Origin: Bacteroidota bacterium
Lineage (GTDB): Bacteria > Bacteroidota > Bacteroidia > UBA7662 > CANHCV01
DNA: 64,000 nt
Assembly: GCA_947501265.1 (NCBI GenBank)
Contig: CANMVY010000003.1
Span: forward strand, 204,676 to 268,675
Direction: 5' to 3'
How positions within the stretch are numbered: the first letter of the stretch is position 1; each line of letters starts with the position of its first letter. Positions 2,630-63,722 of this stretch are shown piece by piece. Position numbers and translations under genes: made by a program. The notes beneath the pieces were generated by a model. That model saw only the letters and a list, made by a program, of their open reading frames with translations. It did no database searches and had not been told where the DNA came from.

Positions 2630-2704
2630 GGTGGCTATAGCTCAGTCGGTTAGAGTAGCGGGTTGTGGTTCCGTTGGTCGTGGGTTCGAATCCCATTAGT
2701 CACC
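2630..2704 (+). tRNA. tRNA-His (anticodon GTG), with G-1, no encoded CCA
   Basis: Hand-folded cloverleaf. Extra 5' G pairs with discriminator C. Acceptor GTGGCTA/TAGTCAC, D-arm GCTC-AGTCGGTTA-GAGT, anticodon loop TTGTGGT, T-arm GTGGG-TTCGAAT-CCCAT. Confidence 0.85.
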
Positions 2705-7395: not shown

Positions 7396-7426
7396 TAATG
7401 GTTTCAATTTCAGTATTTTTGTGACA

Positions 7427-39127: not shown

Positions 39128-39817
39128 ATGGAAAAGAATGAAATGCCCCCCATGAAGAGGCTGGGCTTGCATGCAAAACAAAAATTTCAAACGTACGGAA
39201 GTCAGTACTTATCGGATGAGGAATTGCTGGAGTTGATCCTTTCGCCTTCTACCAAAAAAGGCCAATCCTACGAAAGTGCAAAATCGCTCATGGCCATGGC
39301 AGATGGAAATTTGAGTCAGTTGGCTAAACTGGATTATCTCGATTTTCAAGCCGTTGAGGGGGTGAATTTGAACGGTTCCCTGGCCCTTTCGGCCGGATTG
39401 GAATTGGCCCGTCGGAGACTTCAAGAGCCGGCACCTTCCGTCGTTATCCTCAATCACAGTGAAAAAGTCTTCCAACATTTCAAAGGGTATTTTCTTGATT
39501 TGGATCACGAGGAGTTCATGGTAGCCATGGTCAACAATCGAAATGAACTGATTCACTTTGAACGTATATCTATCGGTGGTATTACCAGCACCATTGTTGA
39601 TGTTCGATTAATCATTCGAAAAGCAATTATGCGTAAAGCCTTGGGATTTTTTTTGATGCATAATCATCCCAGCGGAAACATCATTCCAAGCTCAGCTGAT
39701 AAAGAATTGACAGCAAAATTGAAAAAAGGTGCAGAACTTTTTGATATAACTTTGATCGATCATATTATCTTCGCAAATCACAGGTACTATAGTTTCGCTG
39801 ATGAAGGAAAAATGTAA
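39128..39817 (+). CDS. radC: DNA repair protein RadC (JAMM family)
   Basis: JAMM motif HNHPSG...S..D. N-terminal helix-hairpin-helix region. Start may be the downstream Met (MKRLGL). Confidence 0.8.
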   Translation: MEKNEMPPMKRLGLHAKQKFQTYGSQYLSDEELLELILSPSTKKGQSYESAKSLMAMADGNLSQLAKLDYLDFQAVEGVNLNGSLALSAGLELARRRLQEPAPSVVILNHSEKVFQHFKGYFLDLDHEEFMVAMVNNRNELIHFERISIGGITSTIVDVRLIIRKAIMRKALGFFLMHNHPSGNIIPSSADKELTAKLKKGAELFDITLIDHIIFANHRYYSFADEGKM

Positions 39818-40136
39818 TCGGTTTTGGAAGTTTTTTTGGGTGTCAATTTTGTTGGCCTCCTTCCAGTTTTCCGTTGCACAAACCCGGGTTGTTATCAAAT
39901 GCTTCCCGAACCCTGTTTCAGATAATAGCATCAATCTTCAAATTTCAAAAGAAGGGAGATCCAGCGGTTCAGTTGAGATTTTCAACCTTTTAGGTCGACA
40001 AGTTTACAAAAAACGGATCGATACATCGATCGAAGTTTTAATCGTTCCCGTGGAAGATTTTCCGAAAGGGTTGTACATCGTGAAATATTTTGACGACAAC
40101 AACATTGTCGCCGTCAAAACATTCCAGAAGATTTGA
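39801..40136 (+). CDS. Small secreted protein consisting mostly of a T9SS type-A C-terminal sorting domain
   Basis: Signal peptide WVSILLASFQFSVAQ. Tail CFPNPVSDNSINLQ...GLYIVKY matches the Por-type CTD. Confidence 0.5.
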   Translation: MKEKCNRFWKFFWVSILLASFQFSVAQTRVVIKCFPNPVSDNSINLQISKEGRSSGSVEIFNLLGRQVYKKRIDTSIEVLIVPVEDFPKGLYIVKYFDDNNIVAVKTFQKI

Positions 40137-41180
40137 TTACTTAAGAAATCCGAAATTCCGCGGCACAATCCCTGCCATTAAACTATCGGTCAACGCCGCG
40201 TTCTGGTTCACCCGGTAAATGGTTCCTCGAGAACTGAAGTCTTTGGCATCTGAAATCCACCAGTGCTGGTCAGTTTCATTGTAACCCATTCCGTAAATTC
40301 CGCCGATTCCAGCATGGGAAAACCAAGGTGTTTCGGTAACTTGGGTAGATCCAGCAGACATTAACATTAATTTCCCATCTAACGCATAACCCAATTGATT
40401 GTTAGCATTTTTGCACAATAGGGTAGGATGGTAAGTCATTTGAGAGAAAACCGAGCGGCTGGTTTCGCTACCAAATTCAAAGAAATGAAGCGATCCAGCC
40501 GTTTCTTTTCCCTTCCAGCTCGGATTTCCACCGCATAAAACTGCAAATTTGCTTCCGCCTAAAGCTACTATGCTGTTGGGATTCTGATTGACTTCCATGG
40601 TTTTCTCCAAGGATTGATTTGCGATGTTGACGTAAGAAATGGTGCTGTCGCCACTATTGACCACCGCAAGGTGAGTGCCATTCACCACCGCCATTTTACT
40701 TGGAGTTACCCCCACCGAAATTCGCTTCAAAATGGTTCCGGCATAGGGGTCAACGATCACAACATTTCCACGATCTCCGTTGAAATTCACCCATTCCGTC
40801 ACAAATAACTTCCCATCCCAATAGAGAATTTCATCCGGTAAATTCAAACCGTATTGGGTTCCTTCCGATTTAAACGTTTTTCGGTTAACGATTTCAATTT
40901 TATTGCTGTTGTTCACCACAATGAAGACCTGATCATTACTGAAAGCCACACTTTGAGCGATGCTCCCAATGGGGCGATTGTTCACCGAGTCAAAAACCTG
41001 ATTCCAAAGTTCCTTCGTACTCGAGTTGTAAAATTGGATGTTACCTGAACCGCCCGAAAAAAGGCCCTCATTCACAATAATGACTCCTTGAGAATAATCA
41101 CGATCATGACCTGAATGTCCACGATCACGACATGCGAACATCGTTAATCCAACGAGTAAGCTAAAAATTATTTTCTTCAT
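40137..41180 (-). CDS. YncE-like beta-propeller cell-surface lipoprotein (DUF5074-like), partner of the upstream TonB-dependent receptor
   Basis: Lipoprotein signal MKKIIFSLLVGLTMFAC. Repeated VxVN/IxVVN beta-blade motifs. ATGA overlap with the receptor gene. Confidence 0.6.
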   Translation of the reverse strand: MKKIIFSLLVGLTMFACRDRGHSGHDRDYSQGVIIVNEGLFSGGSGNIQFYNSSTKELWNQVFDSVNNRPIGSIAQSVAFSNDQVFIVVNNSNKIEIVNRKTFKSEGTQYGLNLPDEILYWDGKLFVTEWVNFNGDRGNVVIVDPYAGTILKRISVGVTPSKMAVVNGTHLAVVNSGDSTISYVNIANQSLEKTMEVNQNPNSIVALGGSKFAVLCGGNPSWKGKETAGSLHFFEFGSETSRSVFSQMTYHPTLLCKNANNQLGYALDGKLMLMSAGSTQVTETPWFSHAGIGGIYGMGYNETDQHWWISDAKDFSSRGTIYRVNQNAALTDSLMAGIVPRNFGFLK

Positions 41181-42966
41181 AAAAATTGGTATTGAATTTG
41201 AATTTGTGTTTGATATCGAGGGGCAGGTAAATAAGGCATGTACCAAACCTGATTCCCCAAAATATTTTGAATGCCTAATTTCCCGCTTAATCCTTTGGGC
41301 AATTTCTCACTGAAATCTATCCATAGATTAACTTGTCCTTGGTTCGGAAGCTGAACGGAAGCGTCGGTAGTAACATTGCGTTTTCCTTGGGCTACCATGC
41401 TCAATTCGCCCTTCAGCCCTTTCCAATTCGTAGCCCATTTCGACTGAATTTTCCAATCGGGTTGATAAAGAAGAGGAATCCAAGCATTTTTCCATTGGCG
41501 TGGTTGCTGGTAAGTTCCATTGAATTCGCCTACAAATCGACCCACACGAATTTGATTGATTTTCCATTCAAGGCCAATACTGCGGGATTGACCAACATTT
41601 TCAGCTTTCCAAAATCCGGCGGAGGTGGGAATCCACAGGATTTGATTGGATAGAAATGTGCCGAAAATGGTTGCTTCAAAATTTTTAACCACTCCTCCCC
41701 ATTCAGCATTCCAACCCTCTTCAGGTTTTAACGAAGGATTTCCGCCAGGAACCCAATACCAATCATTCAAGGTAGGGAATCGAAAAACTTGTCCGATATG
41801 AATTTTCGTCGTAAAGTTAGCTGCCTTTTTTTGAATAAAACCATCCAAAATCCAGGGTGAAAACGATTGTTGGAATTGTTCTTTTCGAACGAGAAAATGG
41901 CCTTGAATGCTGGAATCCTCACTCTCAAAGTTCCACTTTCCTAGTGCATTCCATCTCAATCCATTGAAATCTTGGGCATAATAGGGAGAACGAGCCCAAT
42001 ACCCTTGCCAACCGTTTTCTAAAATAAATAAATGACGTCCTTTGTGAATTTTCCAACGCTGCTGGCTACCCAACCAACCGCAGTGATTGGTATCGTTGAG
42101 TGAAATTTTCGCATCTTCGTATTGATTCCATTCATAACTTCCAAACTCCTCCAATTCCCATTGGTGGTTATTTTTTCTCCAAATTTGCCCATCTTGGAAA
42201 CGAATCATTTTATCGGTTTGTATCGCAGTTCCTTTTCCAGCAACTACAGAAATGGGCAAATGTCGAATGGTATTGGAGGCATGTAACCAACCTTGTTTTC
42301 CCCAACTCATTTGAAATGCCGTTCGCTTCATTTGGGAATTTTCCAGTCGGTTGTTTGGGCTTAGCCCGTTAAGAGATTTGGGAAGGGAGTAATTGAGTTG
42401 ATTTTCTTCCTTAAAGAAGGCGAGATTTAAATTCTTACCCAATGAAACTTTTGTCCCTATGGCGTATGAGCCAAAACTTCCACCTTGCAGGAGAATTGAA
42501 TTTCGCTTGGATTGATCGGGAAGGAGTTGAATATTTCCTCCAACAGCTCCGCCTCCAAAGCTACCGCCAGAGCCTCCCGGTTGAAGGTGAATGGCCCCTA
42601 AGAAGAAGGCCGGAATCAGATTCAAATCGAACACTCCATTGATGGGACTATTGATGGGTTGATTTCCCAGAAGGATTTGGGTGCCAACTCCGGGTAAACC
42701 TCGAAAAGATGCGGTTTGAAGGGCCATCGGGCCGTAACCCCGAATGGTTGCCATGGAGTTCTGGTCTAAAAGGGAAGCAGCTGAAAGGGCGTCCATGCTC
42801 AAAGAGTTGGAGCGATCTAAGGTGGTTGCTGGTGCTGCGGTTGGATAGCTTTTGGGTTTCCGCCGAGTAATGATATCGGCAGGGGCAAGGGTGTCGATTT
42901 TCTGAGAGAAAACCGAAAGAAATCCCGAAGCGAAAATCGCCACGAGCAGGAGTTTTTTTAGCATGT
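41177..42966 (-). CDS. btuB: TonB-dependent receptor, BtuB-like (cobalamin-riboswitch controlled)
   Basis: Signal peptide MLKKLLLVAIFASGFLSVFSQ. Plug and beta-barrel architecture. C-terminal aromatic ...YQF. Cobalamin riboswitch in its 5' leader. Confidence 0.8.
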
Positions 42967-42994
42967 TTTTTCGTTTGGGCATCTCAATCCACGA

Positions 42995-43168
42995 AGATGC
43001 AGGCCTCACATCGCTTTCGGCAGGTCTTCCGACTTTCCTCAGTATTTGTTCCCTTCCCATTCCGGTAGAACAGTGGTACGAACAAATCCTTTCGAGGATT
43101 ACGGCAGCGGGACTGTTCAGGATTTTCACCTGATTCCCTTTTCATCCATGCTTCCATGGAACCGAAAA
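42995..43168 (-). promoter_or_regulatory. Cobalamin (B12) riboswitch
   Basis: Minus strand reads AGGGAATCAGGTGAAAATCCTGAACAGTCCCGCTGCCGTAATCC...GTACCACTGTTC...AGTCGGAAGACCTGCC. This is the GGGAA-GGTG-AA-TCC / CCCGC-CGTAA core, a CCACTG element and a B12 box. Confidence 0.85.
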
Positions 43169-43175
43169 CTGAAAC

Positions 43176-43183
43176 AAAGGTAA
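43176..43183 (-). promoter_or_regulatory. Putative -7 box (TACCTTTG on minus strand) driving the B12 riboswitch/btuB transcript
   Basis: TAnnTTTG match a few nt upstream of the riboswitch 5' end. Confidence 0.4.
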
Positions 43184-43208
43184 TTTAAAATGAGGAATTG
43201 AGCAAGAA

Positions 43209-45578
43209 TTATTTCAACCTCAACAGGGTAATTCCATCGCCACCACGGTCGGCGTGCTCGCTTTCGTAACTTTCTACATTCGGATGTCGCCTCAATTGCT
43301 CTCGAATTAATTTTCTTAAAATTCCATCGCCTCGGCCGTGCAAAATGCTCAAATTCCCAGCCCCGGTTAAAACACAACGATCTAACCATGCATCTAATGC
43401 AGTGATTGCTTCTGGCCCCCTAAATCCTCTTAGATCCAAATTAGAACTTAAGTTTTCCATGGGGTTGGTGATGGAAATAGTTACCTTTTGGGTCGACGTA
43501 TTTTTATGATTTTTGATGGGAATCAATAGCTGTGGATCAACCATCATTCGAATGTCATCAAATTCAACAAAGGCACGTTTGTTTTTCAGTTCTATGATTC
43601 TTCCTTTTCCACCTGTTGGTTGGTATTTTACCCACCCTCCAATGGTTAACGCATCGGAAGAAGCTTTGGGTGGAGGAGGAGGAGGGAGCTTTTTAAGCTC
43701 GTCTTTGATTTTACTTTTTTGAACTTCGAAGGATTGACGAATGACTTTTATTTTTTCTTTTTCAGCACCAGTCGATAAAATGTCTTGAACCGTTTTTTCT
43801 ACTACCCGTTGCGCATCTTGTAGAATTTTGGCAGCTTCTTCTTTGGCTTTCCGAATGATTTCTTTTTCGGTTTGCTTTTGAACAACTTCAGCATTTTTAT
43901 TGATTTGAATGAGTTCTTCCAACAAATCGTCTTTTACAGCATTGCCTTCAATCAATCGCTTTAATTCTTGTTCTCTTCTTTGAAGGTCGATCATCAAAGA
44001 ATCAACGTCTTTTTGTTTTCTTCCGGCCTTATGTTCTGCTTTTTGAATGACCGATGGTGGAATGCCCATTTTTTGAGCAATTTCGAGCGCGTAGGAACTT
44101 CCAGGAATTCCCTGCTCAAATTGAAATCTGGGCTCCAAAGTTTTCAAATTGAAGCTCATGGATGCGTTTTCAATGCCCGGATGTTGTGCAGCAAAGGTTT
44201 TTAAGTTGGAAAAGTGGGTGTTGATCATTCCCCAACAATGCTGCTCGATCAATACCTCTAAAATGGCTTCGGCAATAGCACCGCCAAAAGTAGGGTCTGT
44301 TCCCATCCCAAATTCGTCGATGAGAATGAGGGTTTTATCGTTGCCTTCAGCCATGAATTTACGCATGGTTGCGAGGTGGGCCGAATACGTTGAAAGTTCA
44401 TTTGAAACCGACTGATTGTCGCCCAAATCAACAAAAAATTGTTCGAACCACTTTAAATGAGTCCCAACCTTCGCAGGAATGGGCAGCCCCGATTGTGCCA
44501 TGAGCTGGATCAGTCCTACCGTTTTTAATGCTACCGATTTACCTCCAGCGTTCGGACCCGAAACCAAAATCAGCGATTTTTCTTGATTGGTTTTCAAGGA
44601 CAAGGGAATGGTTGGGCGGTGACGTTTTTGGTTTTGAATAAAAAGAACGGGATTGGTGGCTTCTACCAATTCAAAACCCGTCTCGGAAAATTCAGGAATG
44701 ATGGTTTCTAAATCGCCCAGGGCAGCTGTGACCGAGCGGAAAAAATCCAAAAGGGTGAAAAGCTTAAAAGATTGTTGAAACAGTTGAATTTTGGAACGAA
44801 TCTCTTGGCTCAATTTTGCGAGGATGATTCGTTTTTCCCGTTCCATTTCATACTCGATGTTTTTAAGCTCGTTGTTCAACTCAAAAACTTCATTGGGTTC
44901 GAGGTAAATGGTTTTTCCAGTTGCCGATTCATCGTGAATAACCCCAGGAAATTTACGTTTGTGTTCCACCAATAACGGCATGACCATTCTTCCATTTCGG
45001 ATGGTGATGGAAGGCTCCGTAGTGTAGTTGTTTTCTTTCGCAATTTTGAATAATTGATTTAGGCGACTCCGTGTTTCGTCTTCTTTAACCAAATGACGTT
45101 GGTTCGCCTTTTTCAATTCCGTTGACGCATCGGGTTTGATTTTCCCCTCTTTCGAAATGCATCGGTCAATTTCCTTCAACCAAATTAAATCGAAATGAAA
45201 AGAAGATAAAAACCGATTCAAATGTTCAAAACCTTCGACTTGTTTATCCAAGAATTTCTTGAATTTAACCAGGTTTCTGGCTGATTTTGCGATCAGAAAA
45301 ATGTCATACTCTCCAAGCATGAAACCTTCAATCGCTGCTTCTTTCAATATGGGATTGAGGTCGGGGGTCTCTTCGAAAAAAACATCACCGCCTGAAGTGA
45401 GAAGGGTCCTTAATTCTTCAATGCAATGCATTTGGTGAAGGGCATCTTCCTCGGATTCTAATAAGGGCAGGTGAAGTGCAAATTCTCGAGAAGCCACTCC
45501 TCGACCGTAATGGGAAATGTGCGATTTTAATGCAGAGAAATCGAGTTTATCGATTAAGTATTCGGGATATAGTTTCAC
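43209..45578 (-). CDS. mutS2: Endonuclease MutS2 (MutS domain V ATPase plus C-terminal Smr)
   Basis: Walker A GPNAGGKS. C-terminal Smr domain LDLRGFRGPEAI...LSILHGRGDGILR. Confidence 0.85.
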   Translation of the reverse strand: MKLYPEYLIDKLDFSALKSHISHYGRGVASREFALHLPLLESEEDALHQMHCIEELRTLLTSGGDVFFEETPDLNPILKEAAIEGFMLGEYDIFLIAKSARNLVKFKKFLDKQVEGFEHLNRFLSSFHFDLIWLKEIDRCISKEGKIKPDASTELKKANQRHLVKEDETRSRLNQLFKIAKENNYTTEPSITIRNGRMVMPLLVEHKRKFPGVIHDESATGKTIYLEPNEVFELNNELKNIEYEMEREKRIILAKLSQEIRSKIQLFQQSFKLFTLLDFFRSVTAALGDLETIIPEFSETGFELVEATNPVLFIQNQKRHRPTIPLSLKTNQEKSLILVSGPNAGGKSVALKTVGLIQLMAQSGLPIPAKVGTHLKWFEQFFVDLGDNQSVSNELSTYSAHLATMRKFMAEGNDKTLILIDEFGMGTDPTFGGAIAEAILEVLIEQHCWGMINTHFSNLKTFAAQHPGIENASMSFNLKTLEPRFQFEQGIPGSSYALEIAQKMGIPPSVIQKAEHKAGRKQKDVDSLMIDLQRREQELKRLIEGNAVKDDLLEELIQINKNAEVVQKQTEKEIIRKAKEEAAKILQDAQRVVEKTVQDILSTGAEKEKIKVIRQSFEVQKSKIKDELKKLPPPPPPKASSDALTIGGWVKYQPTGGKGRIIELKNKRAFVEFDDIRMMVDPQLLIPIKNHKNTSTQKVTISITNPMENLSSNLDLRGFRGPEAITALDAWLDRCVLTGAGNLSILHGRGDGILRKLIREQLRRHPNVESYESEHADRGGDGITLLRLK

Positions 45579-46878: not shown

Positions 46879-49329
46879 ATGAAAAATTTTTGGTTCGGGA
46901 TCACCTTACTTTTCCCAGCCTTGGCTTTCAGCCAATTCAAAATTACCGGGAATGTAGGGACTTTGGAAGAAAATAGCCGGATGATTGAAAATGCTCTCGT
47001 TCAGGAGAACGGGAATCTCTCAAACACCGTAAAAACCAATGAAAATGGATATTTTGAAATCAATGTATCCTCGCTTCCTTCTAAACTGAAGTTTTCAAGG
47101 ATTGGTTTTCAAACCTTTCTCCTTGAAATCAGAGAAGGTGGAAACATTTCGGTCGGTTTGGCCTATCAACCTCTAGAAACGGAGGAAGTTCTTATCACGG
47201 CAGGAACCAACGTAAGAAAAAATACTCCCGTTGCGGTTACAAATCTGACATCCAAAGACATTCAACCGCTTAATCTCGGGCAAGACATTCCGTTTCTTCT
47301 TCGATTCACTCCTTCGGTGGTGGTTACCTCCGATAATGGAACAGGAATTGGTTACACCGGAATGCGTATTCGTGGTTCCGACGCAACCCGAGTGAATGTT
47401 GCGATCAATGGAGTGCCGTTGAACGATCCTGAAAGTCAGGGTGTTTTTTGGGTAAACATGCCCGATTTTGCTAGTTCTCTTTCTAACATTCAGATTCAGC
47501 GCGGGGTGGGTTCTTCGGTAAACGGTGCAGGTGCATTTGGAGGTACCGTTAACTTGCGTACAGATCAACCCAATCATTTGAACTATGCGGAGTACAGCAT
47601 TTCAGGGGGATCCTTTGGTACGCTTAAGAATACCTTGAAATTCAACGTGAAAACAAATAATTTTCGTTGGAACCTGGAAGGTAGGGTTAGCGATATTCGA
47701 TCAGAAGGCTACATCGACCGAGCCTCTTCTCTCTTGCAAAGTTATTATTTTGCTGCCACCCGTTCCGGTTCCAAATCGGTTCTTAAAATCATGCAGTTTT
47801 CTGGAAAAGAAAGAACGTACCAAAGTTGGTACGGCACGCCGGAATCTCGGGTAAAAAATGACTCTTTGGGAATGATTGCCTATGCTGATCGGAATTATTT
47901 GTCGGACAAAGACCGCAGTAATTTGTTGAACTCGGGTAGATCGTACAATTATTACACCTATCAAAATGAAGTGGATCAATACCAGCAGGACCATGCTCAG
48001 ATTCATTATGGGTATCGATTTAATTCGAAACTTAACTTTCAAACGGCATTGCATTTTACGCATGGGGCCGGGTTTTTTGAGCAGTTCAGAAATGATGATG
48101 ATTTTTCCAACTACCTATTGCCTGCTGTGGTGGTTGGATCTGACTCCATTACTTCCGGAGATTTTATTCGTCGCCGTTGGTTGAATAACTACTTTGGTGG
48201 ATTAACTTTTTCGTTGGACAAAACCTCTACGTTATTCGGGAAAAAGTTTCACGGAATTTTAGGAGGTGCTGTTAACTCCTACACTGGAAACCATTTTGGT
48301 GAAATCATTTGGGCCGAGTGGGCTTCGGTGGCGCCCTTAGGAAAAGAGTATTACCGTTCTCGAGCACGAAAAGTAGATGCCAACATCTACTACAAAGCCG
48401 AGCATCAAGTTTCTGAAAAATGGAACACTTGGTTGGATGTTCAGGTAAGAAGGGTGCTTTATACGGGAACTGGAATCGATAACACCTTGTTACCGGCCGT
48501 TTTCAATGGCGATTATTTGTTCGTTAACCCCAAGGCCGGATTAAATTATCAGCTTTCAAAGAACCAACGTTTGTTTGCATCGGCAGCTGTTGGACAGAAA
48601 GAGCCTATTCGTTCCGATTTTGTTGATAACGCAACTGGAACCGTCCCCAATCCCGAAAAAATGCTCGATTTGGAGTTGGGATATTCCAAAAGAACCCAAA
48701 AATGGATGGTGGAAGCCAACGCGTATTGGATGATTTATCGAGATCAGTTGGTGTTAACCGGCGCGTTGAATGATGTGGGTGCTCCTTTGAGAATCAATGT
48801 TCCCGAATCATTCCGCCGAGGACTTGAAATTCAAGCCGGTTGGAGCATCATTCCTAACAAATTGGAAATCATGGGAAATGTTACCCTAAGTCAGAATAAA
48901 ATTCCGCATTTTACCGAGATGGTTTTCAATTACGATAACATGGCCTACGATTCTACCAAGCATCATCATACCGACATTGCCTTTTCACCGGCTATGGTTG
49001 GAAGTGCTCAATTGGCATGGTCGCCTATGAAGAACATGAAGGCGGTTTGGATGAGTCAACGCGTTGGGAAACAGTACTTAGATAATACCTCGAGCGAAAG
49101 CAGAAAAATGGATGCTTATTGGGTGAATGACTTGCGATTCGAATACAATTTTGGTAGGGTTGGAGATGTTCAAATACGAATGAATGCCTTGGTAAACAAT
49201 GTTTTGAATGCTCAGTTTTCTTCCAACGGTTACACGTTTTCTTATGTTTCAGGAAGCCGGGTTACAGAGAATTTCTTCTATCCGCAAGCCGGAAGGAATT
49301 TACTCGTTGGGGTGACGTTAGGATTTTGA
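46879..49329 (+). CDS. TonB-dependent receptor (TPP-riboswitch regulated; predicted thiamine or thiamine-precursor uptake)
   Basis: Signal peptide. N-terminal carboxypeptidase-regulatory-like domain. Plug motifs (NVAINGVPLND). C-terminal ...VGVTLGF aromatic residue. Confidence 0.85.
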   Translation: MKNFWFGITLLFPALAFSQFKITGNVGTLEENSRMIENALVQENGNLSNTVKTNENGYFEINVSSLPSKLKFSRIGFQTFLLEIREGGNISVGLAYQPLETEEVLITAGTNVRKNTPVAVTNLTSKDIQPLNLGQDIPFLLRFTPSVVVTSDNGTGIGYTGMRIRGSDATRVNVAINGVPLNDPESQGVFWVNMPDFASSLSNIQIQRGVGSSVNGAGAFGGTVNLRTDQPNHLNYAEYSISGGSFGTLKNTLKFNVKTNNFRWNLEGRVSDIRSEGYIDRASSLLQSYYFAATRSGSKSVLKIMQFSGKERTYQSWYGTPESRVKNDSLGMIAYADRNYLSDKDRSNLLNSGRSYNYYTYQNEVDQYQQDHAQIHYGYRFNSKLNFQTALHFTHGAGFFEQFRNDDDFSNYLLPAVVVGSDSITSGDFIRRRWLNNYFGGLTFSLDKTSTLFGKKFHGILGGAVNSYTGNHFGEIIWAEWASVAPLGKEYYRSRARKVDANIYYKAEHQVSEKWNTWLDVQVRRVLYTGTGIDNTLLPAVFNGDYLFVNPKAGLNYQLSKNQRLFASAAVGQKEPIRSDFVDNATGTVPNPEKMLDLELGYSKRTQKWMVEANAYWMIYRDQLVLTGALNDVGAPLRINVPESFRRGLEIQAGWSIIPNKLEIMGNVTLSQNKIPHFTEMVFNYDNMAYDSTKHHHTDIAFSPAMVGSAQLAWSPMKNMKAVWMSQRVGKQYLDNTSSESRKMDAYWVNDLRFEYNFGRVGDVQIRMNALVNNVLNAQFSSNGYTFSYVSGSRVTENFFYPQAGRNLLVGVTLGF

Positions 49330-54631: not shown

Positions 54632-56191
54632 ATGGCTATAAAATCACTCTACATACAATCCTCCAACAACTCGATGGAAATTGCTCTTTGTGAAAACAAA
54701 AAGCTGGTCGAGTTTACCCGTGATGCATCCCACAAGGGTTTGCAAGTGGGAGATATATGCTTGGGAAGAGTTAAAAAACTTTCCACCTCCCTAAATGCCT
54801 CATTTGTAGATGTTGGCACCGAAAAAGATGGTTTCTTGCATTACCTCGATCTCGGTCCTCAATACAACTCCTATCGGAAGTTTGTTCAAGACCGATTGCA
54901 AGGCAAACGCAACCACAGTACCCTGAAAAATTTTCAAATCCAAACGCCCATCGATAAAGGTGGTAAAATTTCCGATTTGATGAATAAAGGAGAATTGGTG
55001 ATGGTGCAAGTGGTTAAAGAACCCATCAGTTCGAAAGGCCCACGGCTAACCTCCGAAATTTCCATTCCAGGAAGATTCATGGTTTTAATGCCATTCACCG
55101 ATTCCGTAACGGTATCGAAAAAAATTAAAGAACTTGAAGAACGAAAGCGGATCAAACAAGCCGTTTTAGCCGTAAAACCCAAGAACTACGGGTTTATTCT
55201 TCGTACTGCAGCCGAAAATGCTAGTGTTGACGATATTCAAAAAGAAGTAAATACCCTTTTGGAGAAATGGGAAAAGGCGTTCGCCAATATCCATGTAACC
55301 ATGGCCTCAAAATGCATTCTCAAAGAAGAAGATCGGTCAATTGGTTTGCTTCGCGATCTATTAAGTGACTCATTCGAGGAAATTGTGGTTGATCAAGAAA
55401 CCCTGTTTCAAGATCTGAAAAAATACGTCACCGAAATTTCTCCAGATCTCCAAAACATCATCAAGCATTACCGAAAAAAGGATAAATCATTGTTTGAAGT
55501 TTACGAAATTGATCGTCAAATTCGTAACTCCTTCGGTCGGTCCGTCACCTTTGTTGGTGGCGCATATTTGGTGATTGATCATACCGAAGCCATGCACGTG
55601 ATCGATGTGAATTCAGGAAACCGAATTCGAAAGGAAGAAGATCAAGAAATGAATGTCTTGAACATCAACCTTGATGCTTGCGAAGAAGTTGCTCGTCAGC
55701 TTCGCCTGCGCGATATGGGAGGTTTGATCATGATCGATTTCATTGACATGAAGCGCCCAACCCACCGAAAAATGGTTTTTGATAAAATGGAGGAATTGCT
55801 GAATTTGGACAGAGCAACTTCTTCCGTTTCTCCCATCGGTAAGTTTGGCGTGATGGAGCTAACCCGCGAGAGGGTTCGTCCAGAAACCAACGTTGAAGTA
55901 ACTGAAAGTTGTCCCTCTTGCAATGGGACTGGGACCATTCAATCATCAATGAAATTGATGGATGAATTAGAACTCCACCTTAAGCAAATCTTTTTTGAGC
56001 AGAATGAAAAAATTATTCAACTTCGGGTGAATCCATTTATTCATGCTTACCTCACCAAAGGCCTTATTTCTCAGAGGATGAAATGGTTCTTTAAATACAG
56101 TAAATGGATCAAACTGGATTCTGATTCAACCTTTTCAGTGAATCAATATCAGTTTTTGAATGGCTCAGGAGAATCCATGATCATGGATTAA
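54632..56191 (+). CDS. Ribonuclease E/G family protein
   Basis: N-terminal S1 domain (NIYKGRV-like ICLGRVKKLSTSLNASFVDVG). Catalytic-domain motifs. Zn-link CPSCNGTG. Confidence 0.85.
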   Translation: MAIKSLYIQSSNNSMEIALCENKKLVEFTRDASHKGLQVGDICLGRVKKLSTSLNASFVDVGTEKDGFLHYLDLGPQYNSYRKFVQDRLQGKRNHSTLKNFQIQTPIDKGGKISDLMNKGELVMVQVVKEPISSKGPRLTSEISIPGRFMVLMPFTDSVTVSKKIKELEERKRIKQAVLAVKPKNYGFILRTAAENASVDDIQKEVNTLLEKWEKAFANIHVTMASKCILKEEDRSIGLLRDLLSDSFEEIVVDQETLFQDLKKYVTEISPDLQNIIKHYRKKDKSLFEVYEIDRQIRNSFGRSVTFVGGAYLVIDHTEAMHVIDVNSGNRIRKEEDQEMNVLNINLDACEEVARQLRLRDMGGLIMIDFIDMKRPTHRKMVFDKMEELLNLDRATSSVSPIGKFGVMELTRERVRPETNVEVTESCPSCNGTGTIQSSMKLMDELELHLKQIFFEQNEKIIQLRVNPFIHAYLTKGLISQRMKWFFKYSKWIKLDSDSTFSVNQYQFLNGSGESMIMD

Positions 56192-56982
56192 TGAGCCTGA
56201 AAACTATTTGGTAAATTCCCTTTCAATTTAGAAATAAAAACCGTGTCGTTTTCCGAATGACTGGATAACGGATTTTGATTAAAATCTACCGGATTGTTAC
56301 CGAAAAAATATCGATGTAAATCGTGTTTGATTCGAATTTTGGGGACGTTATTCAAAACGGTTAATGGGTTAATGGGAAGTTCAACTGTGGTTCGGTTGAT
56401 CAAACCGCCTAAATGAAAGGAAAATCCACTTTCTTGTCCGCCCCGAATGATTTTCCCCTCGGTTGCATGAAAAATGTAGCCACCCAACCACCCCCAATGC
56501 AACTGTCCATAAGAGGGATCGAGAGGGTGGTACTTGGGCCATCGTTGCGGATCGCCGTGATTTTCTAAAGAATCCAATCCAACCTGAAAACGAACCGATG
56601 AATAGGTGCCATTTGGAATGTTTTTTAGATAAAAGGAATCAACTCCTAAATTTAGATTGATTAATCCATATTGTTCGGGAAACGAAACCCAGTTCCCCAA
56701 CTGATTCTTTAACTCAAGCTTTGAAACAATGTACTTGATGTTGGTGAATTTAAAAGAAAACCGAAAACTACTGTCCGATTGAAACCGACGATCAAGTCCA
56801 TCGATGGAATCGTTCCAAAAAAAATGAGAAAATTGCATCAGCATTCCATTCGCCTTAGGAGCTTTTACGTGCTCTGGAATTTTTGGCCAAACGGTATTAG
56901 TTACAGGAATGTAAGGTGTATCGTCTTTGCAAGATGTGATTCCAACGCTTATAAAAAAGAGAATGAGCCAACGCATTCTCAA
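56188..56982 (-). CDS. Hypothetical lipoprotein (possibly MbnP-like)
   Basis: Lipobox ISVGITSC. Trp/His-rich. 4-nt overlap with the RNase gene. Family call is tentative. Confidence 0.4.
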   Translation of the reverse strand: MRMRWLILFFISVGITSCKDDTPYIPVTNTVWPKIPEHVKAPKANGMLMQFSHFFWNDSIDGLDRRFQSDSSFRFSFKFTNIKYIVSKLELKNQLGNWVSFPEQYGLINLNLGVDSFYLKNIPNGTYSSVRFQVGLDSLENHGDPQRWPKYHPLDPSYGQLHWGWLGGYIFHATEGKIIRGGQESGFSFHLGGLINRTTVELPINPLTVLNNVPKIRIKHDLHRYFFGNNPVDFNQNPLSSHSENDTVFISKLKGNLPNSFQAH

Positions 56983-61251: not shown

Positions 61252-62163
61252 TTGAAGAAAAAAAAGATGAAAAAGTTTATTTTCTTGGTTCTATTGTTGA
61301 ATTTGGTTGTTGGGTTAGAGGCCCAGAATGTTGATTCTAGTCAAATCGTTTCGGTATTGCAAACGGATGGGACTAAATGGATCGGCCAAATTCTTTCCAG
61401 TAATTCTCGCGAAATTCTATTTAAAACCCAGGAGGGGAGGGAGCTGTATATTCCTCAATTTGTGATTTCAAAAATTGACCTGGTCAAATTATCGGAGTTC
61501 AGTGAAAGTGGAAATTACATAGGGGAAGAGAAGTTTTGTACGAGGTATTTTTTAACCACCAATGGATTGCCTTTGAAAAAGAAAACAGGGTACATTCAGT
61601 GGAATTTATTCGGTCCTGACATTCAATTTAGTGTAACGGATAAGTTGGGAGTAGGATTAATGACGAGTTGGGTGGGAATTCCGATGATTGCTACCATCAA
61701 GTATTCCACCGAAATTTCAGATAACCTTCACATTGCCTTAGGAGGATTGATTGGCACGGGCACTTGGGCTGCTCCCGATTATGGAGGTATCCTTCCTTTT
61801 GCGGCGATTACGCTTGGCAATGAGAAGCGTAACATTAACTTTAGCAGCGGTTACGGTGCTATTTGGACCGAGGGAGAGCGCGATGGCAGGACGTTGGTTT
61901 CTTTGGCTGGAATGTCGAAAATCGGCAAAAAGGTATCTTTGGTTTTTGATTCGTTCATTATTTTGCCGAAATCTGCAACGGAATTGGATCCGTTTGGAAA
62001 TCCGATAGCTACCACCAAAAATGGTTTGGCCATCATTACTCCGGGATTACGATTCCATCAATCGGAGACGTCTGCCTTCCAATTTGGATTTACCGGCATG
62101 TATGCGAACAGCGAATGGCTTCCAATACCCATTCCCATGGTTCAGTGGTACAGAGCGTTTTAA
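61252..62163 (+). CDS. Hypothetical secreted protein (possible outer-membrane beta-barrel)
   Basis: Signal peptide MKKFIFLVLLLNLVVGLEAQ. Alternating amphipathic beta-strand pattern. C-terminal aromatic ...YRAF. Confidence 0.4.
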   Translation: MKKKKMKKFIFLVLLLNLVVGLEAQNVDSSQIVSVLQTDGTKWIGQILSSNSREILFKTQEGRELYIPQFVISKIDLVKLSEFSESGNYIGEEKFCTRYFLTTNGLPLKKKTGYIQWNLFGPDIQFSVTDKLGVGLMTSWVGIPMIATIKYSTEISDNLHIALGGLIGTGTWAAPDYGGILPFAAITLGNEKRNINFSSGYGAIWTEGERDGRTLVSLAGMSKIGKKVSLVFDSFIILPKSATELDPFGNPIATTKNGLAIITPGLRFHQSETSAFQFGFTGMYANSEWLPIPIPMVQWYRAF

Positions 62164-62459: not shown

Positions 62460-63722
62460 ATGGCAACGGTAAAATTTATCATTCAAGCAAACTCAAATAA
62501 TTCCAGGGTTTACCTAAGGTTCCGTGATGGAAGAGGGGTAGATATTAAGTTAAAAACCGATTATATCATCTCTGTAAATCAATGGGATCTTCAGAGAGGA
62601 TTCCCTAAAAGAGCTGGAGATGAAATAGCAAAGTTTATCAATGCAGAATTAAAAACACTCGAAGCAACGATTTATGAAAGATATAATCGAACGGATAGAT
62701 CGGTTGTAATTGATACAAATTGGTTAAAAGAAATTGTCAATACAGGTCAAAGTGTTAATCATGTCGTCAAAAAGAAAGATTCTGCGTTGTTTTCTAGCCA
62801 AGTCGATAAGTATGTATTAGCCAAAAGGAAATTGGTTAAAGCATCTGCTATAAGAAAATATAAACGAACCAATGAAATCGTTCAAGAAATTGGAAAATTA
62901 TTGCAAAAAAAAATCAAAGTAAAGGATATTGATTGGGATTTTAAGGCACAATTTGATGATTATTGTAACGTTCAAGCGTACAGTCCTTCCTATATTCGTA
63001 AAGTGTTCAAGAATATCAAAACAATTGCTGAGTTTGCTTTTATCCAAGATGGAGTAGAGATTCATCCAATGCTAAGGGGGAGGGTGCCTTATTCAGAAAG
63101 TGAAAACAAGGCGATTTTTCTTTCATTTGAAGAGATTGAGAGAATTGAAAACTTTGATTTTGAAAATGAAAGGTTAAATAATGTCCGAGATTGGTTAATC
63201 ATTAGCTGTGGAACAGGTGCGAGGATCTCGGATTTTATGAATTTTTCACCTCAAATGATTGAAAAGTATATTTCAAACGGAAAAGTGGTAAGGGATATCA
63301 AGTATCGCCAAGTGAAAACAAATCAACAAATATTGAGTGGAATTTATGAAAATACTCCAATGTATAGAACTTTAAAACGTTTGGGTTGGACGTTCCCTCC
63401 CAAGATATCAAGTCAGAAATATAATGATTATCTTAAAGAGATTGGTAAATTAGCCGGATTGGATGACGTAGTTGAAGGGGATAAAATAGATCCGAATACC
63501 AAACGAAAGGTAAGGGGACGTTTTAAAAAGTTTGAGTTATTAACCTCCCATATTGGAAGACGAAGTTTTGCAACCAACTATTATGGGAAAATCCCAACCT
63601 CAGATTTAATGGTATTAACTGGGCATAAAAGTGAAGGAATGCTTTTGAAATATATCCGAAAAAGCGGAGAAGAGAAAAATGTTGAAGCGGTCAATAAAGT
63701 AAGAAAATGGTTACATTCATAA
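62460..63722 (+). CDS. Site-specific tyrosine integrase (Bacteroidota CTn/ICE-type with N-terminal arm-binding domain)
   Basis: N-terminal MATVKFIIQANSNNSRVYLRFRDG, typical of Bacteroidota integrase arm-binding domains. C-terminal catalytic region with HIGRRSFAT and LTGHKSEGMLLKY (R..H..R..Y). Confidence 0.85.
   Translation: MATVKFIIQANSNNSRVYLRFRDGRGVDIKLKTDYIISVNQWDLQRGFPKRAGDEIAKFINAELKTLEATIYERYNRTDRSVVIDTNWLKEIVNTGQSVNHVVKKKDSALFSSQVDKYVLAKRKLVKASAIRKYKRTNEIVQEIGKLLQKKIKVKDIDWDFKAQFDDYCNVQAYSPSYIRKVFKNIKTIAEFAFIQDGVEIHPMLRGRVPYSESENKAIFLSFEEIERIENFDFENERLNNVRDWLIISCGTGARISDFMNFSPQMIEKYISNGKVVRDIKYRQVKTNQQILSGIYENTPMYRTLKRLGWTFPPKISSQKYNDYLKEIGKLAGLDDVVEGDKIDPNTKRKVRGRFKKFELLTSHIGRRSFATNYYGKIPTSDLMVLTGHKSEGMLLKYIRKSGEEKNVEAVNKVRKWLHS

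What the first reader, a model, noticed from the sequence alone, without database searches (positions are those of the whole stretch)
40137..43183. Cobalamin riboswitch controls a btuB-like receptor and a YncE-like beta-propeller lipoprotein
On the minus strand at 42995-43168 there is an unmistakable B12 riboswitch. It carries the GGGAAtcaGGTGaAAaTCC and CCCGCtgCCGTAA core, a CCACTG element and a B12 box AGTCGGAAGACCTGCC. It lies in the leader of a TonB-dependent receptor gene. That gene overlaps by 4 nt a gene for a surface lipoprotein with YncE/DUF5074-like beta-propeller repeats. In gut Bacteroides, B12 capture needs accessory surface lipoproteins (BtuG-type beta-propellers) alongside BtuB. 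This two-gene module may be the analogous system here. No btuF/CD genes sit in the operon.
Basis: partly seen in the sequence, partly recalled or inferred. Interest (0 to 1): 0.55.

Follow-up and report, generated by a model that had tools for sequence, protein, structure and literature searches.

The report
Riboswitch-controlled BtuB–BtuG vitamin B12 uptake operon
This is an ordinary vitamin B12 uptake module of an uncultured freshwater Bacteroidota bacterium: a B12-sensing RNA switch in front of an outer-membrane transporter (BtuB) and its surface lipoprotein lid (BtuG), the same system already solved structurally in gut Bacteroides.

Summary
Rfam places a full-length cobalamin riboswitch at 43002-43181 (-) (108 bits, cut-off 31.5). 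It lies directly in front of a TonB-dependent receptor gene (42982-41177). That gene overlaps a lipoprotein gene (41180-40137) by ATGA.

- Its best PDB sequence matches cover the full length and are B. thetaiotaomicron BtuG3 and BtuG2 (E 5e-19 to 7e-16).
- Its AlphaFold model (pLDDT 94) has BtuG1/2/3 as its top 16 Foldseek hits (TM about 0.8).
- BtuG2 itself belongs to Pfam DUF5074.

The receptor's only PDB sequence matches below E 0.001 are the Bacteroides BtuB chains. It keeps the aromatic tip of extracellular loop 8 (W458).

Among 80 related loci from Bacteroidota species genomes, 69 carry a cobalamin riboswitch upstream, and only 2 lack one despite having enough upstream sequence. Nearly all have a homologous receptor just upstream.

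A hairpin 2 nt after the aptamer (43000-42979) holds the AUG in its 3' arm. It is the local version of a conserved L13-type kissing-loop hairpin, which points to translational repression.

Lineage-specific details are an Arg-to-Asp change at a corrin-contact position and a bulged L13 loop. No btuFCD genes lie in the 64 kb.

Verdict: a new member of a known kind, of low interest.

The parts
43175..43205 (-). Putative Bacteroidota-type promoter: TTG at 43205-43203, a 20-nt spacer, then TAnnTTTG (TACCTTTG) at 43182-43175. It starts 4 nt after the mutS2 stop codon.
   Evidence: Read from the sequence. In L005 only an 'nn' position of the box differs (TATCTTTG), while TA, TTTG and the upstream TTG are invariant in L005 and L006. 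The consensus is from my own knowledge of Bacteroides/Flavobacterium promoters. The sigma-70 scan does not cover this promoter type. Inferred, not shown.
43002..43181 (-). Cobalamin riboswitch aptamer (RF00174) with a P6 extension. The B12 box is at 43034-43019 and the L5 loop reads GUCCCGC.
   Evidence: 108.2 bits, E 3.8e-26, full model; 97% identical in L005 and L006, with a compensatory G-C to A-U change in the P6 extension.
42979..43000 (-). Expression-platform hairpin (P13/L13-like). The 5' arm is GCAUCUU (43000-42994), the loop is CGUGGAUU (42993-42986), and the 3' arm is GAGAUGC (42985-42979). The 3' arm contains the first AUG (42982-42980). No U-tract follows.
   Evidence: It appears in both the MFE and centroid folds. 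A hairpin with a UCGGGA-type loop lies mostly 19-39 nt after the B12 box in 61 of 67 related loci, against 10.5% of random 110-nt windows. L5 and L13 are complementary, with some covariation (UUCCG with CGGAA, UCCCG with CGGGA).
41177..42982 (-). btuB-type TonB-dependent transporter, 601 aa from ATG 42982 or 595 aa from ATG 42964. It has a signal peptide, a TonB-box-like DTLAPADIIT, a plug (residues about 48-149), a barrel, the motif RFPTLNDWYW..PGGNPSLKPE, and the EL8 tip TSAGFW with W458 (codon 41611-41609).
   Evidence: Pfam Plug and barrel above their cut-offs; the only PDB sequence hits with E<0.001 are chains from the B. theta BtuBG entries 8P98_A, 8P97_A and 8BMX_C (E about 2e-25). W458 aligns to BtuB3 Tyr538; that position is W in 51 of 56 partner receptors.
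40137..41180 (-). btuG: a BtuG/DUF5074-family seven-bladed beta-propeller lipoprotein of 347 aa. The lipidated Cys17 has its codon at 41132-41130. It is translationally coupled to btuB through an ATGA overlap.
   Evidence: full-length matches to BtuG3 and BtuG2, E 5e-19 to 7e-16. AF2 pLDDT 94.3, pTM 0.89; the top 16 Foldseek PDB hits are BtuG1/2/3, TM 0.76-0.81 on the query. Cys17 is present in 73 of 75 relatives, and contact residues E38, G39, F41, Q76, N90, S176 and Y296 are conserved.
40016..40031 (-). Possible operon terminator: a hairpin (GATCGATGTATCGATC) followed by a T-run, 106 nt past the btuG stop and inside the convergent gene.
   Evidence: The number of such sites in the region (3) is not above the shuffle expectation (5.1), so this is weak.

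Best explanation
The locus is a minimal Bacteroidota BtuBG corrinoid-uptake operon under a cobalamin riboswitch.

Proposed mechanism. A promoter just after mutS2 drives a leader that folds into a class-I-type (AdoCbl-type architecture) cobalamin aptamer. When intracellular cobalamin is high, the ligand-bound aptamer presents its L5 loop (UCCCG). L5 then pairs with the loop of the hairpin 2 nt downstream (CG(U)GGA). That pairing locks the hairpin, whose 3' arm contains the AUG, and blocks translation initiation of btuB. Because btuG is coupled to btuB through the ATGA overlap, btuG is blocked as well. When cobalamin is low, both proteins are made. BtuB forms a 22-strand TonB-dependent barrel. 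BtuG is lipid-anchored at Cys17 on the cell surface and sits on BtuB as a hinged lid. Its propeller pocket captures corrinoids with very high affinity. On lid closure the BtuB loop EL8, with W458 at its tip, pushes the ligand out of BtuG into BtuB for TonB-driven import. Passage across the inner membrane must use genes outside this window.

What is shown and what is inferred. Shown here: the identity of the riboswitch, the homology and fold of both proteins, the operon anatomy, and the conservation of the three-part architecture across the phylum. Inferred from the B. thetaiotaomicron work and from sequence comparison: the lid mechanism, B12 binding, surface exposure and the kissing-loop translational control.
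For: Riboswitch.

BtuG homology and fold. Searches identify the matched PDB entries as BtuG1-3 and BtuB1-3 (PMC10404256). One search shows BtuG2 is a DUF5074 member.

BtuB. One search shows the EL8 Trp and the RxPT(L/F)ND..PGGNP motif are conserved in partner receptors.

Architecture across the phylum:
- Rfam finds RF00174 about 2 kb upstream in 10 of 11 diverse loci.
- An nhmmer profile finds it in 69 of 80 loci. Only L018 and L034 lack it despite having enough upstream sequence.
- A homologous receptor lies immediately upstream in nearly every locus.

Contact residues: E38, G39, F41, Q76, N90, S176 and Y296 are identical to BtuG2 E55, G56, F58, Q93, N107, S195 and Y316. W130 probably corresponds to W149 after a one-residue shift.

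Platform.

Published function of BtuBG: PMC6143338 and PMC10404256.
Against: - Nothing here was tested biochemically, and the organism is uncultured (MAGs only).
- Identity to the characterised BtuGs is only about 23%.
- Four to six of the 14 published BtuG2 contact positions differ. One is a charge reversal, Arg to Asp116, at a position that is Arg in 68 of 75 relatives. Trp194 is absent, as it is in BtuG1.
- The residues after Cys17 (RDRGH) are not a clearly acidic lipoprotein export signal, so surface exposure is not established.
- The protein falls below the Pfam PF16819.11 cut-off (21.2 against 27.2), and the receptor is far below the NCBIfam BtuB cut-offs.
- The L13 loop deviates from the family consensus by an inserted U, and the leader is invariant among the three close relatives, so this particular hairpin has no covariation support.
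- Which of the two AUGs is used is unknown.
Confidence: 0.87

Rival explanations
1. The machinery is the same, but the preferred ligand has shifted. The small 'LPDE' clade (the window plus its relatives at 35-85% identity) has altered the BtuG pocket (Arg to Asp116, Ser to Leu114, Tyr to Glu117, no Trp194). It may favour a different corrinoid, such as cobinamide, pseudocobalamin or another cobamide common in freshwater, or it may bind and release with different kinetics.
For:: Asp is found only in the window and P0002-P0005, while 68 of 75 relatives have Arg; in BtuG1-3, substitutions at pocket positions (W272A, A261W) change cobinamide affinity 10- to 100-fold, and BtuG1 lacks Trp194. The MAGs come from pond and reservoir samples.
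Against: Most hydrogen-bonding contacts to the corrin amides are retained. BtuG2 does not contact the lower ligand and binds many corrinoids, so selectivity in this family is low to begin with. The assignment of the Arg rests on my reading of the 8BN0 numbering (R133), whereas the preprint names 'Arg135'. No structure with ligand was modelled.
Confidence: 0.1
2. The riboswitch acts mainly at the level of transcription or RNA stability (Rho-dependent termination or RNase access), or also on read-through transcripts from mutS2. It would not act through kissing-loop occlusion of the start codon.
For: No terminator separates mutS2 from the leader. In many related loci the conserved hairpin lies 100-200 nt upstream of the start codon, so other mechanisms must exist in the family.
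Against: In the window only 20 nt separate the aptamer from the AUG. The single hairpin has no U-tract, so there is no intrinsic terminator. The AUG sits inside the hairpin arm. L5 and L13 are complementary across the family.
Confidence: 0.1
3. The propeller lipoprotein is a generic YncE/YVTN-type protein unrelated to B12 capture (for example periplasmic, or binding something else), and it is merely co-transcribed with the receptor.
For: Weak hits to YncE, PQQ-associated propellers and hydrazine synthase beta. It is below the DUF5074 cut-off in this Pfam copy. The export signal is non-canonical.
Against: Full-length homology and the best structural matches are to BtuG1-3, well ahead of YVTN or YncE proteins. 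YncE scores 32 bits against a cut-off of 400. The family is linked to a cobalamin riboswitch in 69 of about 71 informative loci. The NEGxF, Q76, N90 and Y296 ligand contacts are conserved. The partner receptor keeps the EL8 aromatic residue that exists to empty BtuG.
Confidence: 0.03

Closest known systems
Bacteroides thetaiotaomicron BtuB2-BtuG2 (BT1953-BT1954), BtuB3-BtuG3 and BtuB1-BtuG1 (PDB 8BN0, 8BMX, 8BMY, 8P97, 8P98, 8BLW, 3DSM; Wexler 2018, Abellon-Ruiz 2023)
   Same: - A cobalamin riboswitch lies upstream.
- The TonB-dependent BtuB gene is adjacent to the BtuG lipoprotein gene.
- BtuG has the same seven-bladed propeller fold (TM about 0.8).
- The N-terminal lipid Cys is present.
- The NEGxF, Q, N and Y corrin contacts are conserved.
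- The BtuB EL8 aromatic tip and the RFPTLND..PGGNP motif are conserved.
   Different: - Identity is only about 23% for BtuG, and the receptor matches only in patches.
- The receptor is about 100 aa shorter (601 aa against 693-713), which is the normal size for non-Bacteroides relatives.
- The operon holds just two genes, with no btuH, btuFCD or other accessory binders.
- The pocket differs: Arg to Asp116, Trp272 to His (the consensus outside Bacteroides), and no Trp194.
- The host is an uncultured freshwater bacterium, not a gut commensal.
Escherichia coli btuB and its leader riboswitch
   Same: A cobalamin riboswitch controls a TonB-dependent B12 receptor. The platform is a hairpin at the translation start, thought to be locked by an L5-L13 kissing loop (own knowledge). 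The TonB box is similar (DTLVVTA in E. coli, from my own knowledge; DTLAPADIIT here).
   Different: E. coli BtuB works without a lipoprotein lid. The window receptor does not reach the NCBIfam BtuB cut-offs (21.9 against 836) and does not hit E. coli BtuB in the PDB search at E<=1.
SusCD / RagAB 'pedal-bin' transporter-lid complexes of Bacteroidota
   Same: The concept is the same: a surface lipoprotein caps a TonB-dependent barrel and opens like a lid (PMC10404256).
   Different: The lid fold is different (SusD is a helical TPR-like protein, from my own knowledge; BtuG is a beta-propeller). The receptor is not SusC-type. BtuG affinity is extremely high, which is why the EL8 ejection loop is needed.
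E. coli YncE and archaeal YVTN propellers
   Same: They share the seven-bladed YVTN-type beta-propeller fold (1L0Q is Foldseek rank 17).
   Different: There is no orthology (NCBIfam YncE 32 bits against 400). Those proteins are neither lipoproteins in B12 operons nor paired with a receptor.

Membership tests
Cobalamin riboswitch (Rfam RF00174) | Covariance-model score at or above the curated gathering score, over the full model | tested here: met
   108.2 bits against 31.5, model positions 1-189 of 189, E 3.8e-26.
Cobalamin riboswitch (Rfam RF00174) | B12 box and conserved core (GGGAA..GGUG..CC, CCACUG, AGxCxGxAGACCUGCC) | tested here: met
   the B12 box is at 43034-43019, and the core motifs are present and aligned with high posterior probability.
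Cobalamin riboswitch (Rfam RF00174) | Expression platform coupled to the aptamer (an L5-L13 kissing loop that occludes the start site) | tested here: inconclusive
   A hairpin at 43000-42979 holds the AUG. The homologous hairpin is present in 61 of 67 loci. L5 and L13 are complementary, with UCCG/CGGA against CCCG/CGGG covariation. However, the window loop needs a bulged U, and there is no covariation among its close relatives.
Cobalamin riboswitch (Rfam RF00174) | Binds a cobalamin and represses the downstream gene | not testable with these tools
   Needs in-line probing or ITC, and reporter assays.
BtuG (Bacteroidota B12-capturing surface lipoprotein; Pfam DUF5074) | Seven-bladed beta-propeller whose closest structures are BtuG | tested here: met
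   pLDDT 94.3. Foldseek ranks 1-16 are all BtuG2, BtuG3 or BtuG1, E 1e-26 to 8e-17, TM 0.76-0.81 on the query.
BtuG (Bacteroidota B12-capturing surface lipoprotein; Pfam DUF5074) | Full-length sequence homology to characterised BtuG, and membership of PF16819 | tested here: inconclusive
   PDB phmmer gives E 5e-19 to 7e-16 over residues 11-343, so homology is met. PF16819.11 scores 21.2 bits, below its cut-off of 27.2, although the precomputed PF16819.12 annotation lists it. BtuG2 itself scores 73.9 bits.
BtuG (Bacteroidota B12-capturing surface lipoprotein; Pfam DUF5074) | Lipoprotein signal peptide with a lipidated Cys | tested here: met
   The product begins MKKIIFSLLVGLTMFAC. The Cys column is conserved in 73 of 75 relatives and aligns near BtuG2 Cys32.
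BtuG (Bacteroidota B12-capturing surface lipoprotein; Pfam DUF5074) | Surface exposure (a lipoprotein export signal after the Cys) | tested here: inconclusive
   The residues after Cys are RDRGHSGHDRD, with only one acidic residue in the first four. Relatives mostly have SxDDD. BtuG2 and BtuG3 also lack a scoring export signal, yet BtuG2 is surface exposed.
BtuG (Bacteroidota B12-capturing surface lipoprotein; Pfam DUF5074) | Encoded next to btuB in a cobalamin-riboswitch locus | tested here: met
   for the window. For the family: 69 of 80 loci have the riboswitch, only 2 informative loci lack it, and a receptor homologue lies upstream in nearly all.
BtuG (Bacteroidota B12-capturing surface lipoprotein; Pfam DUF5074) | Conservation of the corrin-contact residues of BtuG2 | tested here: inconclusive
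   Identical: E55, G56, F58, Q93, N107, S195, Y316, and probably W149. Conservative: Q219N, Y335F. Different: S131L, R133D, W272H, and W194 absent.
BtuG (Bacteroidota B12-capturing surface lipoprotein; Pfam DUF5074) | High-affinity corrinoid binding and a stable complex with BtuB | not testable with these tools
   No multimer prediction or biochemistry was available.
BtuB, Bacteroidota type (TonB-dependent B12 transporter partnered with BtuG) | Plug domain plus TonB-dependent beta-barrel | tested here: met
   PF07715 scores 25.6 bits (cut-off 23.9) and PF00593 scores 36 bits (cut-off 27).
BtuB, Bacteroidota type (TonB-dependent B12 transporter partnered with BtuG) | Specific similarity to the characterised Bacteroides BtuB1-3 | tested here: met
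   the only PDB hits with E<0.001 are 8P98_A, 8BMX_C and 8P97_A (E about 2e-25), in the plug and in the RFPTLND..PGGNP..EL8 region.
BtuB, Bacteroidota type (TonB-dependent B12 transporter partnered with BtuG) | Extracellular loop 8 with an aromatic tip residue that displaces B12 from BtuG | tested here: met
   W458 aligns to BtuB3 Tyr538 (the role is described in PMC10404256). The column is W in 51, F in 3 and Y in 1 of 56 partner receptors.
BtuB, Bacteroidota type (TonB-dependent B12 transporter partnered with BtuG) | TonB box near the mature N-terminus | tested here: inconclusive
   QKIDTLAPADIITRR resembles the E. coli DTLVVTA (own knowledge). Relatives have D(T/S)xxxLxxVxV at the same place. 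No formal test was made.
BtuB, enterobacterial equivalog (NCBIfam NF007926 / TIGR01779) | Score at or above the curated equivalog cut-off | tested here: not met
   21.9 bits against 836, and 18.8 bits against 599.7. It is not filed as an E. coli-type BtuB equivalog.
YncE (NCBIfam NF052280) | Score at or above the curated equivalog cut-off | tested here: not met
   32 bits against 400, matching only residues 83-205.

The most novel reading that the evidence does not exclude
The window's small freshwater clade (BtuG with LPDE in place of the near-universal xPRY, no Trp194, and an L13 loop with a bulged U) is a functionally shifted BtuBG. Its pocket chemistry would be tuned to a different corrinoid pool, for example cobinamide or pseudocobalamin from cyanobacteria. 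It would work as a stand-alone two-gene outer-membrane module, and so would represent the minimal or ancestral form of the lid-assisted B12 uptake system.
Probability: 0.1. Interest if true: 0.35.

Novelty: new member of a known kind. Interest (0 to 1): 0.15.

Why it matters
The locus adds little that is new in concept. It shows that the BtuB-BtuG lid system characterised in gut Bacteroides, together with its riboswitch and a conserved L13-type hairpin, exists as a compact two-gene operon in uncultured freshwater Bacteroidota and across all major orders of the phylum.

There are three practical uses.
- Annotation: proteins labelled 'YncE family', 'YVTN' or 'DUF5074' that lie after a riboswitch-controlled receptor should be called BtuG.
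- Gene calling: existing gene calls start this btuB inside the riboswitch.
- Ecology: the locus marks B12 scavenging in freshwater plankton.

The Arg-to-Asp pocket change gives a small, testable lead on corrinoid selectivity.

Tried and rejected
- YncE orthology was rejected (32 bits against a cut-off of 400).
- The E. coli-type BtuB equivalog was rejected.
- An intrinsic terminator in the leader was not found. The sigma-70 and terminator scan gave counts at or below the shuffle expectation, and the only hairpin after the aptamer has no U-tract.
- I looked for btuFCD, cobalamin biosynthesis genes or B12-dependent enzymes among all ORFs of 150 aa or more in the window. None were found.
- I tried to obtain a more diverged leader from the 51%-identical relative P0004. 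Both of its contigs are cut just upstream of btuG.
- A literature search for BtuG work on environmental Flavobacteria found nothing relevant in the held library.
- A regex-based extraction of L5 loops parsed only about half of the loci, so the L5-L13 covariation is indicative and not a statistical test.
- I did not model the receptor. That would have cost another whole-database search, and the PDB sequence hits were already specific.
- The 650-aa (GTG 43129) and 627-aa gene-caller versions of the receptor were rejected as start-site artefacts, because they run into the aptamer.
Full report
OBSERVATION. Rfam finds a full-length cobalamin riboswitch (RF00174) at 43002-43181 on the minus strand. 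It scores 108.2 bits against a gathering score of 31.5, with E 3.8e-26. The only other Rfam hit in the window is a tRNA. The aptamer sits in the 226-nt gap between the mutS2 stop (43209) and a TonB-dependent receptor gene. The receptor's first ATG is at 42982, a second in-frame ATG is at 42964, and its stop ends at 41177. The mechanical 650-aa ORF and the 627-aa gene call in public metagenomes both begin inside the aptamer, so they are start-site artefacts. The receptor stop overlaps the start of the next gene by ATGA (41180-41177). That gene (41180-40137) encodes a 347-aa protein beginning MKKIIFSLLVGLTMFAC. The gene after it (39801-40136) is convergent, so the operon has two genes.

WHAT THE PROTEINS ARE: LIPOPROTEIN. 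Family libraries give only weak labels for the lipoprotein. DUF5074 scores 21.2 bits, below its cut-off of 27.2. YncE scores 32 bits against a cut-off of 400. A search of PDB sequences is decisive. The best matches cover the full length (residues 11-343) at E 5e-19 to 7e-16. They are 8P97_B/8P98, 8OKV, 8PUJ, 8BN0, 8BMX, 8BMY, 8BAZ, 8BAI and 3DSM. The papers identify these entries as B. thetaiotaomicron BtuG3 and BtuG2, and BtuG1 (8PTD, 8PTF, 8BLW) matches more weakly. The BtuGs are the surface lipoproteins that capture B12 and cap BtuB (PMC10404256; PMC6143338; bioRxiv 2024.02.16.580637). An AlphaFold model built on 75 homologues is confident (pLDDT 94.3, pTM 0.89). Its first 16 Foldseek matches in the PDB are all BtuG2, BtuG3 or BtuG1 (E 1e-26 to 8e-17, TM 0.76-0.81 on the query). 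These rank ahead of the archaeal YVTN propeller and BtuK1. BtuG2 itself scores 73.9 bits on Pfam DUF5074.

WHAT THE PROTEINS ARE: RECEPTOR. The receptor has Pfam Plug and barrel domains above their cut-offs. Its only PDB sequence matches below E 0.001 are the receptor chains of B. thetaiotaomicron BtuBG entries (8P98_A, 8P97_A, 8BMX_C; E about 2e-25). They match in the plug and in a barrel segment that holds the motif RFPTLND(L/W)Y..PGGNP.L and extracellular loop 8. In BtuB3 the EL8 tip residue Tyr538 (Trp in BtuB1, Phe in BtuB2) helps push B12 out of BtuG. The window protein has Trp458 at the aligned position, and that column is Trp in 51 of 56 receptors encoded next to BtuG homologues. The receptor does not reach the NCBIfam cut-offs for the enterobacterial BtuB equivalog.

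HOW GENERAL THE ARCHITECTURE IS. The exact lipoprotein occurs in several pond, lake and reservoir metagenomes and in MAGs labelled only 'Bacteroidota bacterium'. Its relatives fall at 85, 82 and 51% identity and then at 37% or less. A scan of one genome per species found at least 494 relatives, and 80 loci were fetched. They span Flavobacteriales, Cytophagales, Chitinophagales/Saprospiraceae, Sphingobacteriales and Bacteroidales.
- Rfam finds RF00174 about 2 kb upstream, on the same strand, in 10 of 11 diverse loci.
- An nhmmer profile of those riboswitches finds one in 69 of the 80 loci. Nine of the 11 negatives have less than 1.4 kb of upstream sequence, so only L018 and L034 truly lack it.
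- A homologue of the window receptor lies directly upstream of the btuG homologue in nearly every locus.
- Those receptors are typically 600-660 aa, so the window's 601 aa is normal outside Bacteroides. Many loci likewise have no same-strand gene right after btuG.

LIGAND POCKET. I mapped the published BtuG2 contacts through the 8BN0 alignment and the 75-sequence alignment.
- Identical: E55, G56, F58, Q93, N107, S195 and Y316 (window E38, G39, F41, Q76, N90, S176, Y296).
- Probably conserved after a one-residue shift: W149, as W130.
- Conservative changes: Q219 to N200 and Y335 to F315.
- W272 is His251, which is the consensus of the non-Bacteroides relatives. BtuG3 has Ala at this position.
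- W194 is absent, as in BtuG1.
- S131 is Leu114.
- The Arg of the xPRY motif is Asp116. This is R133 in 8BN0 numbering. The preprint says Arg135, and every other residue it lists fits the 8BN0 numbering, so I take it to be this Arg, but that is unverified.

That Arg is kept in 68 of 75 relatives. Asp occurs only in the window and its four nearest relatives (P0002-P0005, motif LPDE). This is the one lineage-specific oddity of the protein. It may be neutral, since an acidic side chain can still hydrogen-bond a corrin amide, or it may shift selectivity.

REGULATION: PROMOTER AND HAIRPIN. Upstream of the aptamer, TTG (43205-43203), a 20-nt spacer and TACCTTTG (43182-43175) fit the Bacteroidota TTG / TAnnTTTG promoter consensus, which I know from memory. 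In L005 only an 'nn' position of that box differs, and the box and the upstream TTG are unchanged in L006. The Rfam match ends at 43002, only 20 nt before the first AUG. The single structure in between is a 7-bp hairpin, GCAUCUU-CGUGGAUU-GAGAUGC (43000-42979). Its 3' arm contains the AUG at 42982, and no U-tract follows. This excludes an intrinsic terminator and points to translational control.

REGULATION: COMPARISON WITH RELATED LOCI. Across the related loci, a small hairpin with a UCGGGA-type loop lies mostly 19-39 nt after the B12 box in 61 of 67 cases, against 10.5% of random 110-nt windows. Where I could parse the aptamer's L5 loop, it is complementary to that loop. UUCCCG pairs with CGGGAA, UUCCG pairs with CGGAA, and UCCCCG pairs with CGG(A)GGA with a bulge. 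This is the pattern expected of the L5-L13 kissing loop known from other cobalamin riboswitches (own knowledge). The window's pair, UCCCG with CG(U)GGA, fits with one bulged U. The leader is 97% identical in the 95%- and 84%-identity relatives, more conserved than the coding sequence. It shows a compensatory G-C to A-U change in the P6 extension but no variation in the platform. The kissing-loop model is therefore well supported for the family and only inferred for this locus. The ATGA overlap suggests that btuG translation is coupled to btuB.

REST OF THE WINDOW. Pfam scans of all ORFs of 150 aa or more found housekeeping genes, type IX secretion and gliding genes, and cell-envelope genes. 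These include mutS2, radC, yggS-like, ccmB/C, gdhA, rpsA, glmS, feoB, gldD, a C25 peptidase and a second receptor. There is no FecCD, Peripla_BP_2 or ABC-type btuFCD, no cobalamin biosynthesis gene and no B12-dependent enzyme. The inner-membrane step and the reason the cell needs B12 cannot be read from this window.

VERDICT. What is there is the well-characterised Bacteroidota BtuBG system in its minimal, riboswitch-controlled two-gene form. It is a divergent new member from an uncultured freshwater lineage, not a new kind of system. Interest is low. The modest leads are the Arg-to-Asp pocket change, the bulged L13 loop, and the usefulness of renaming 'YncE family/DUF5074' proteins in this context as BtuG.

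Noticed in passing
window 39801-40136 (+): A 111-aa protein that consists only of a signal peptide followed directly by a type IX secretion C-terminal sorting domain (Por_Secre_tail, E 1.7e-10), with no cargo domain. Its stop codon abuts the btuG stop (convergent, 0 nt apart). A 121-aa counterpart holds the same position next to the 51%-identical btuG in L085 and L086.
   Followed up: partly
window 43060-43129 region; L001 8121-10004: Public gene calls give the receptor 627 aa, and the mechanical ORF gives 650 aa from GTG 43129. Both start inside the riboswitch aptamer. The plausible starts are ATG 42982 or ATG 42964, the latter preceded by an A-rich tract.
   Followed up: partly
L016 3951-4153: In a Bernardetiaceae MAG the cobalamin riboswitch ends about 50 nt before the btuG homologue itself. 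No receptor gene lies between them, and no receptor hit appears in the 4 kb upstream.
   Followed up: no
L029 6001-8079; L037, L045, L071, L082: There are variants of the lid gene. Aequorivita capsosiphonis has two btuG-like genes in tandem. Several Maribacter-type loci encode 466-474-aa BtuG proteins with an N-terminal extension, and database relatives of that size carry a Calx-beta domain (PF03160) before DUF5074.
   Followed up: no
L051 and L078: About 2 kb of extra sequence, presumably another gene, lies between the riboswitch-controlled receptor and the btuG homologue.
   Followed up: no
window 7352-12445 (+): A 1697-aa ORF with a Peptidase_C25 (gingipain/PorU-type) domain and a weak FlgD_ig-like C-terminus. 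It sits directly after a hybrid histidine kinase/response regulator (4849-7395).
   Followed up: no
window 46879-49329 (+): A second TonB-dependent receptor (816 aa, with an N-terminal CarboxypepD_reg-like domain) about 3.7 kb from the riboswitch, on the other strand. No riboswitch and no adjacent lipoprotein were detected.
   Followed up: no
window 62460-63722 (+): A tyrosine recombinase/integrase (Phage_int_SAM_5 plus Phage_integrase) near the right end of the window, preceded by a 303-aa ORF with no Pfam hit (61252-62163). This may be the edge of a mobile element.
   Followed up: no
window 56188-56982 (-): An MbnP-family protein (E 2.8e-29). From my own knowledge this family is usually paired with MbnH in copper-related periplasmic systems. 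No partner was looked for.
   Followed up: no
window 42940-43215 versus L005 and L006: The 276-nt leader is 97% identical in relatives whose BtuB and BtuG proteins are only 83-84% identical (L006). The RNA is therefore under stronger constraint than the coding sequence.
   Followed up: yes
window 2631-2704 (+): A tRNA gene (61.7 bits). The anticodon loop reads UUGUGGU, which suggests tRNA-His (GUG). This was not checked with ARAGORN.
   Followed up: no
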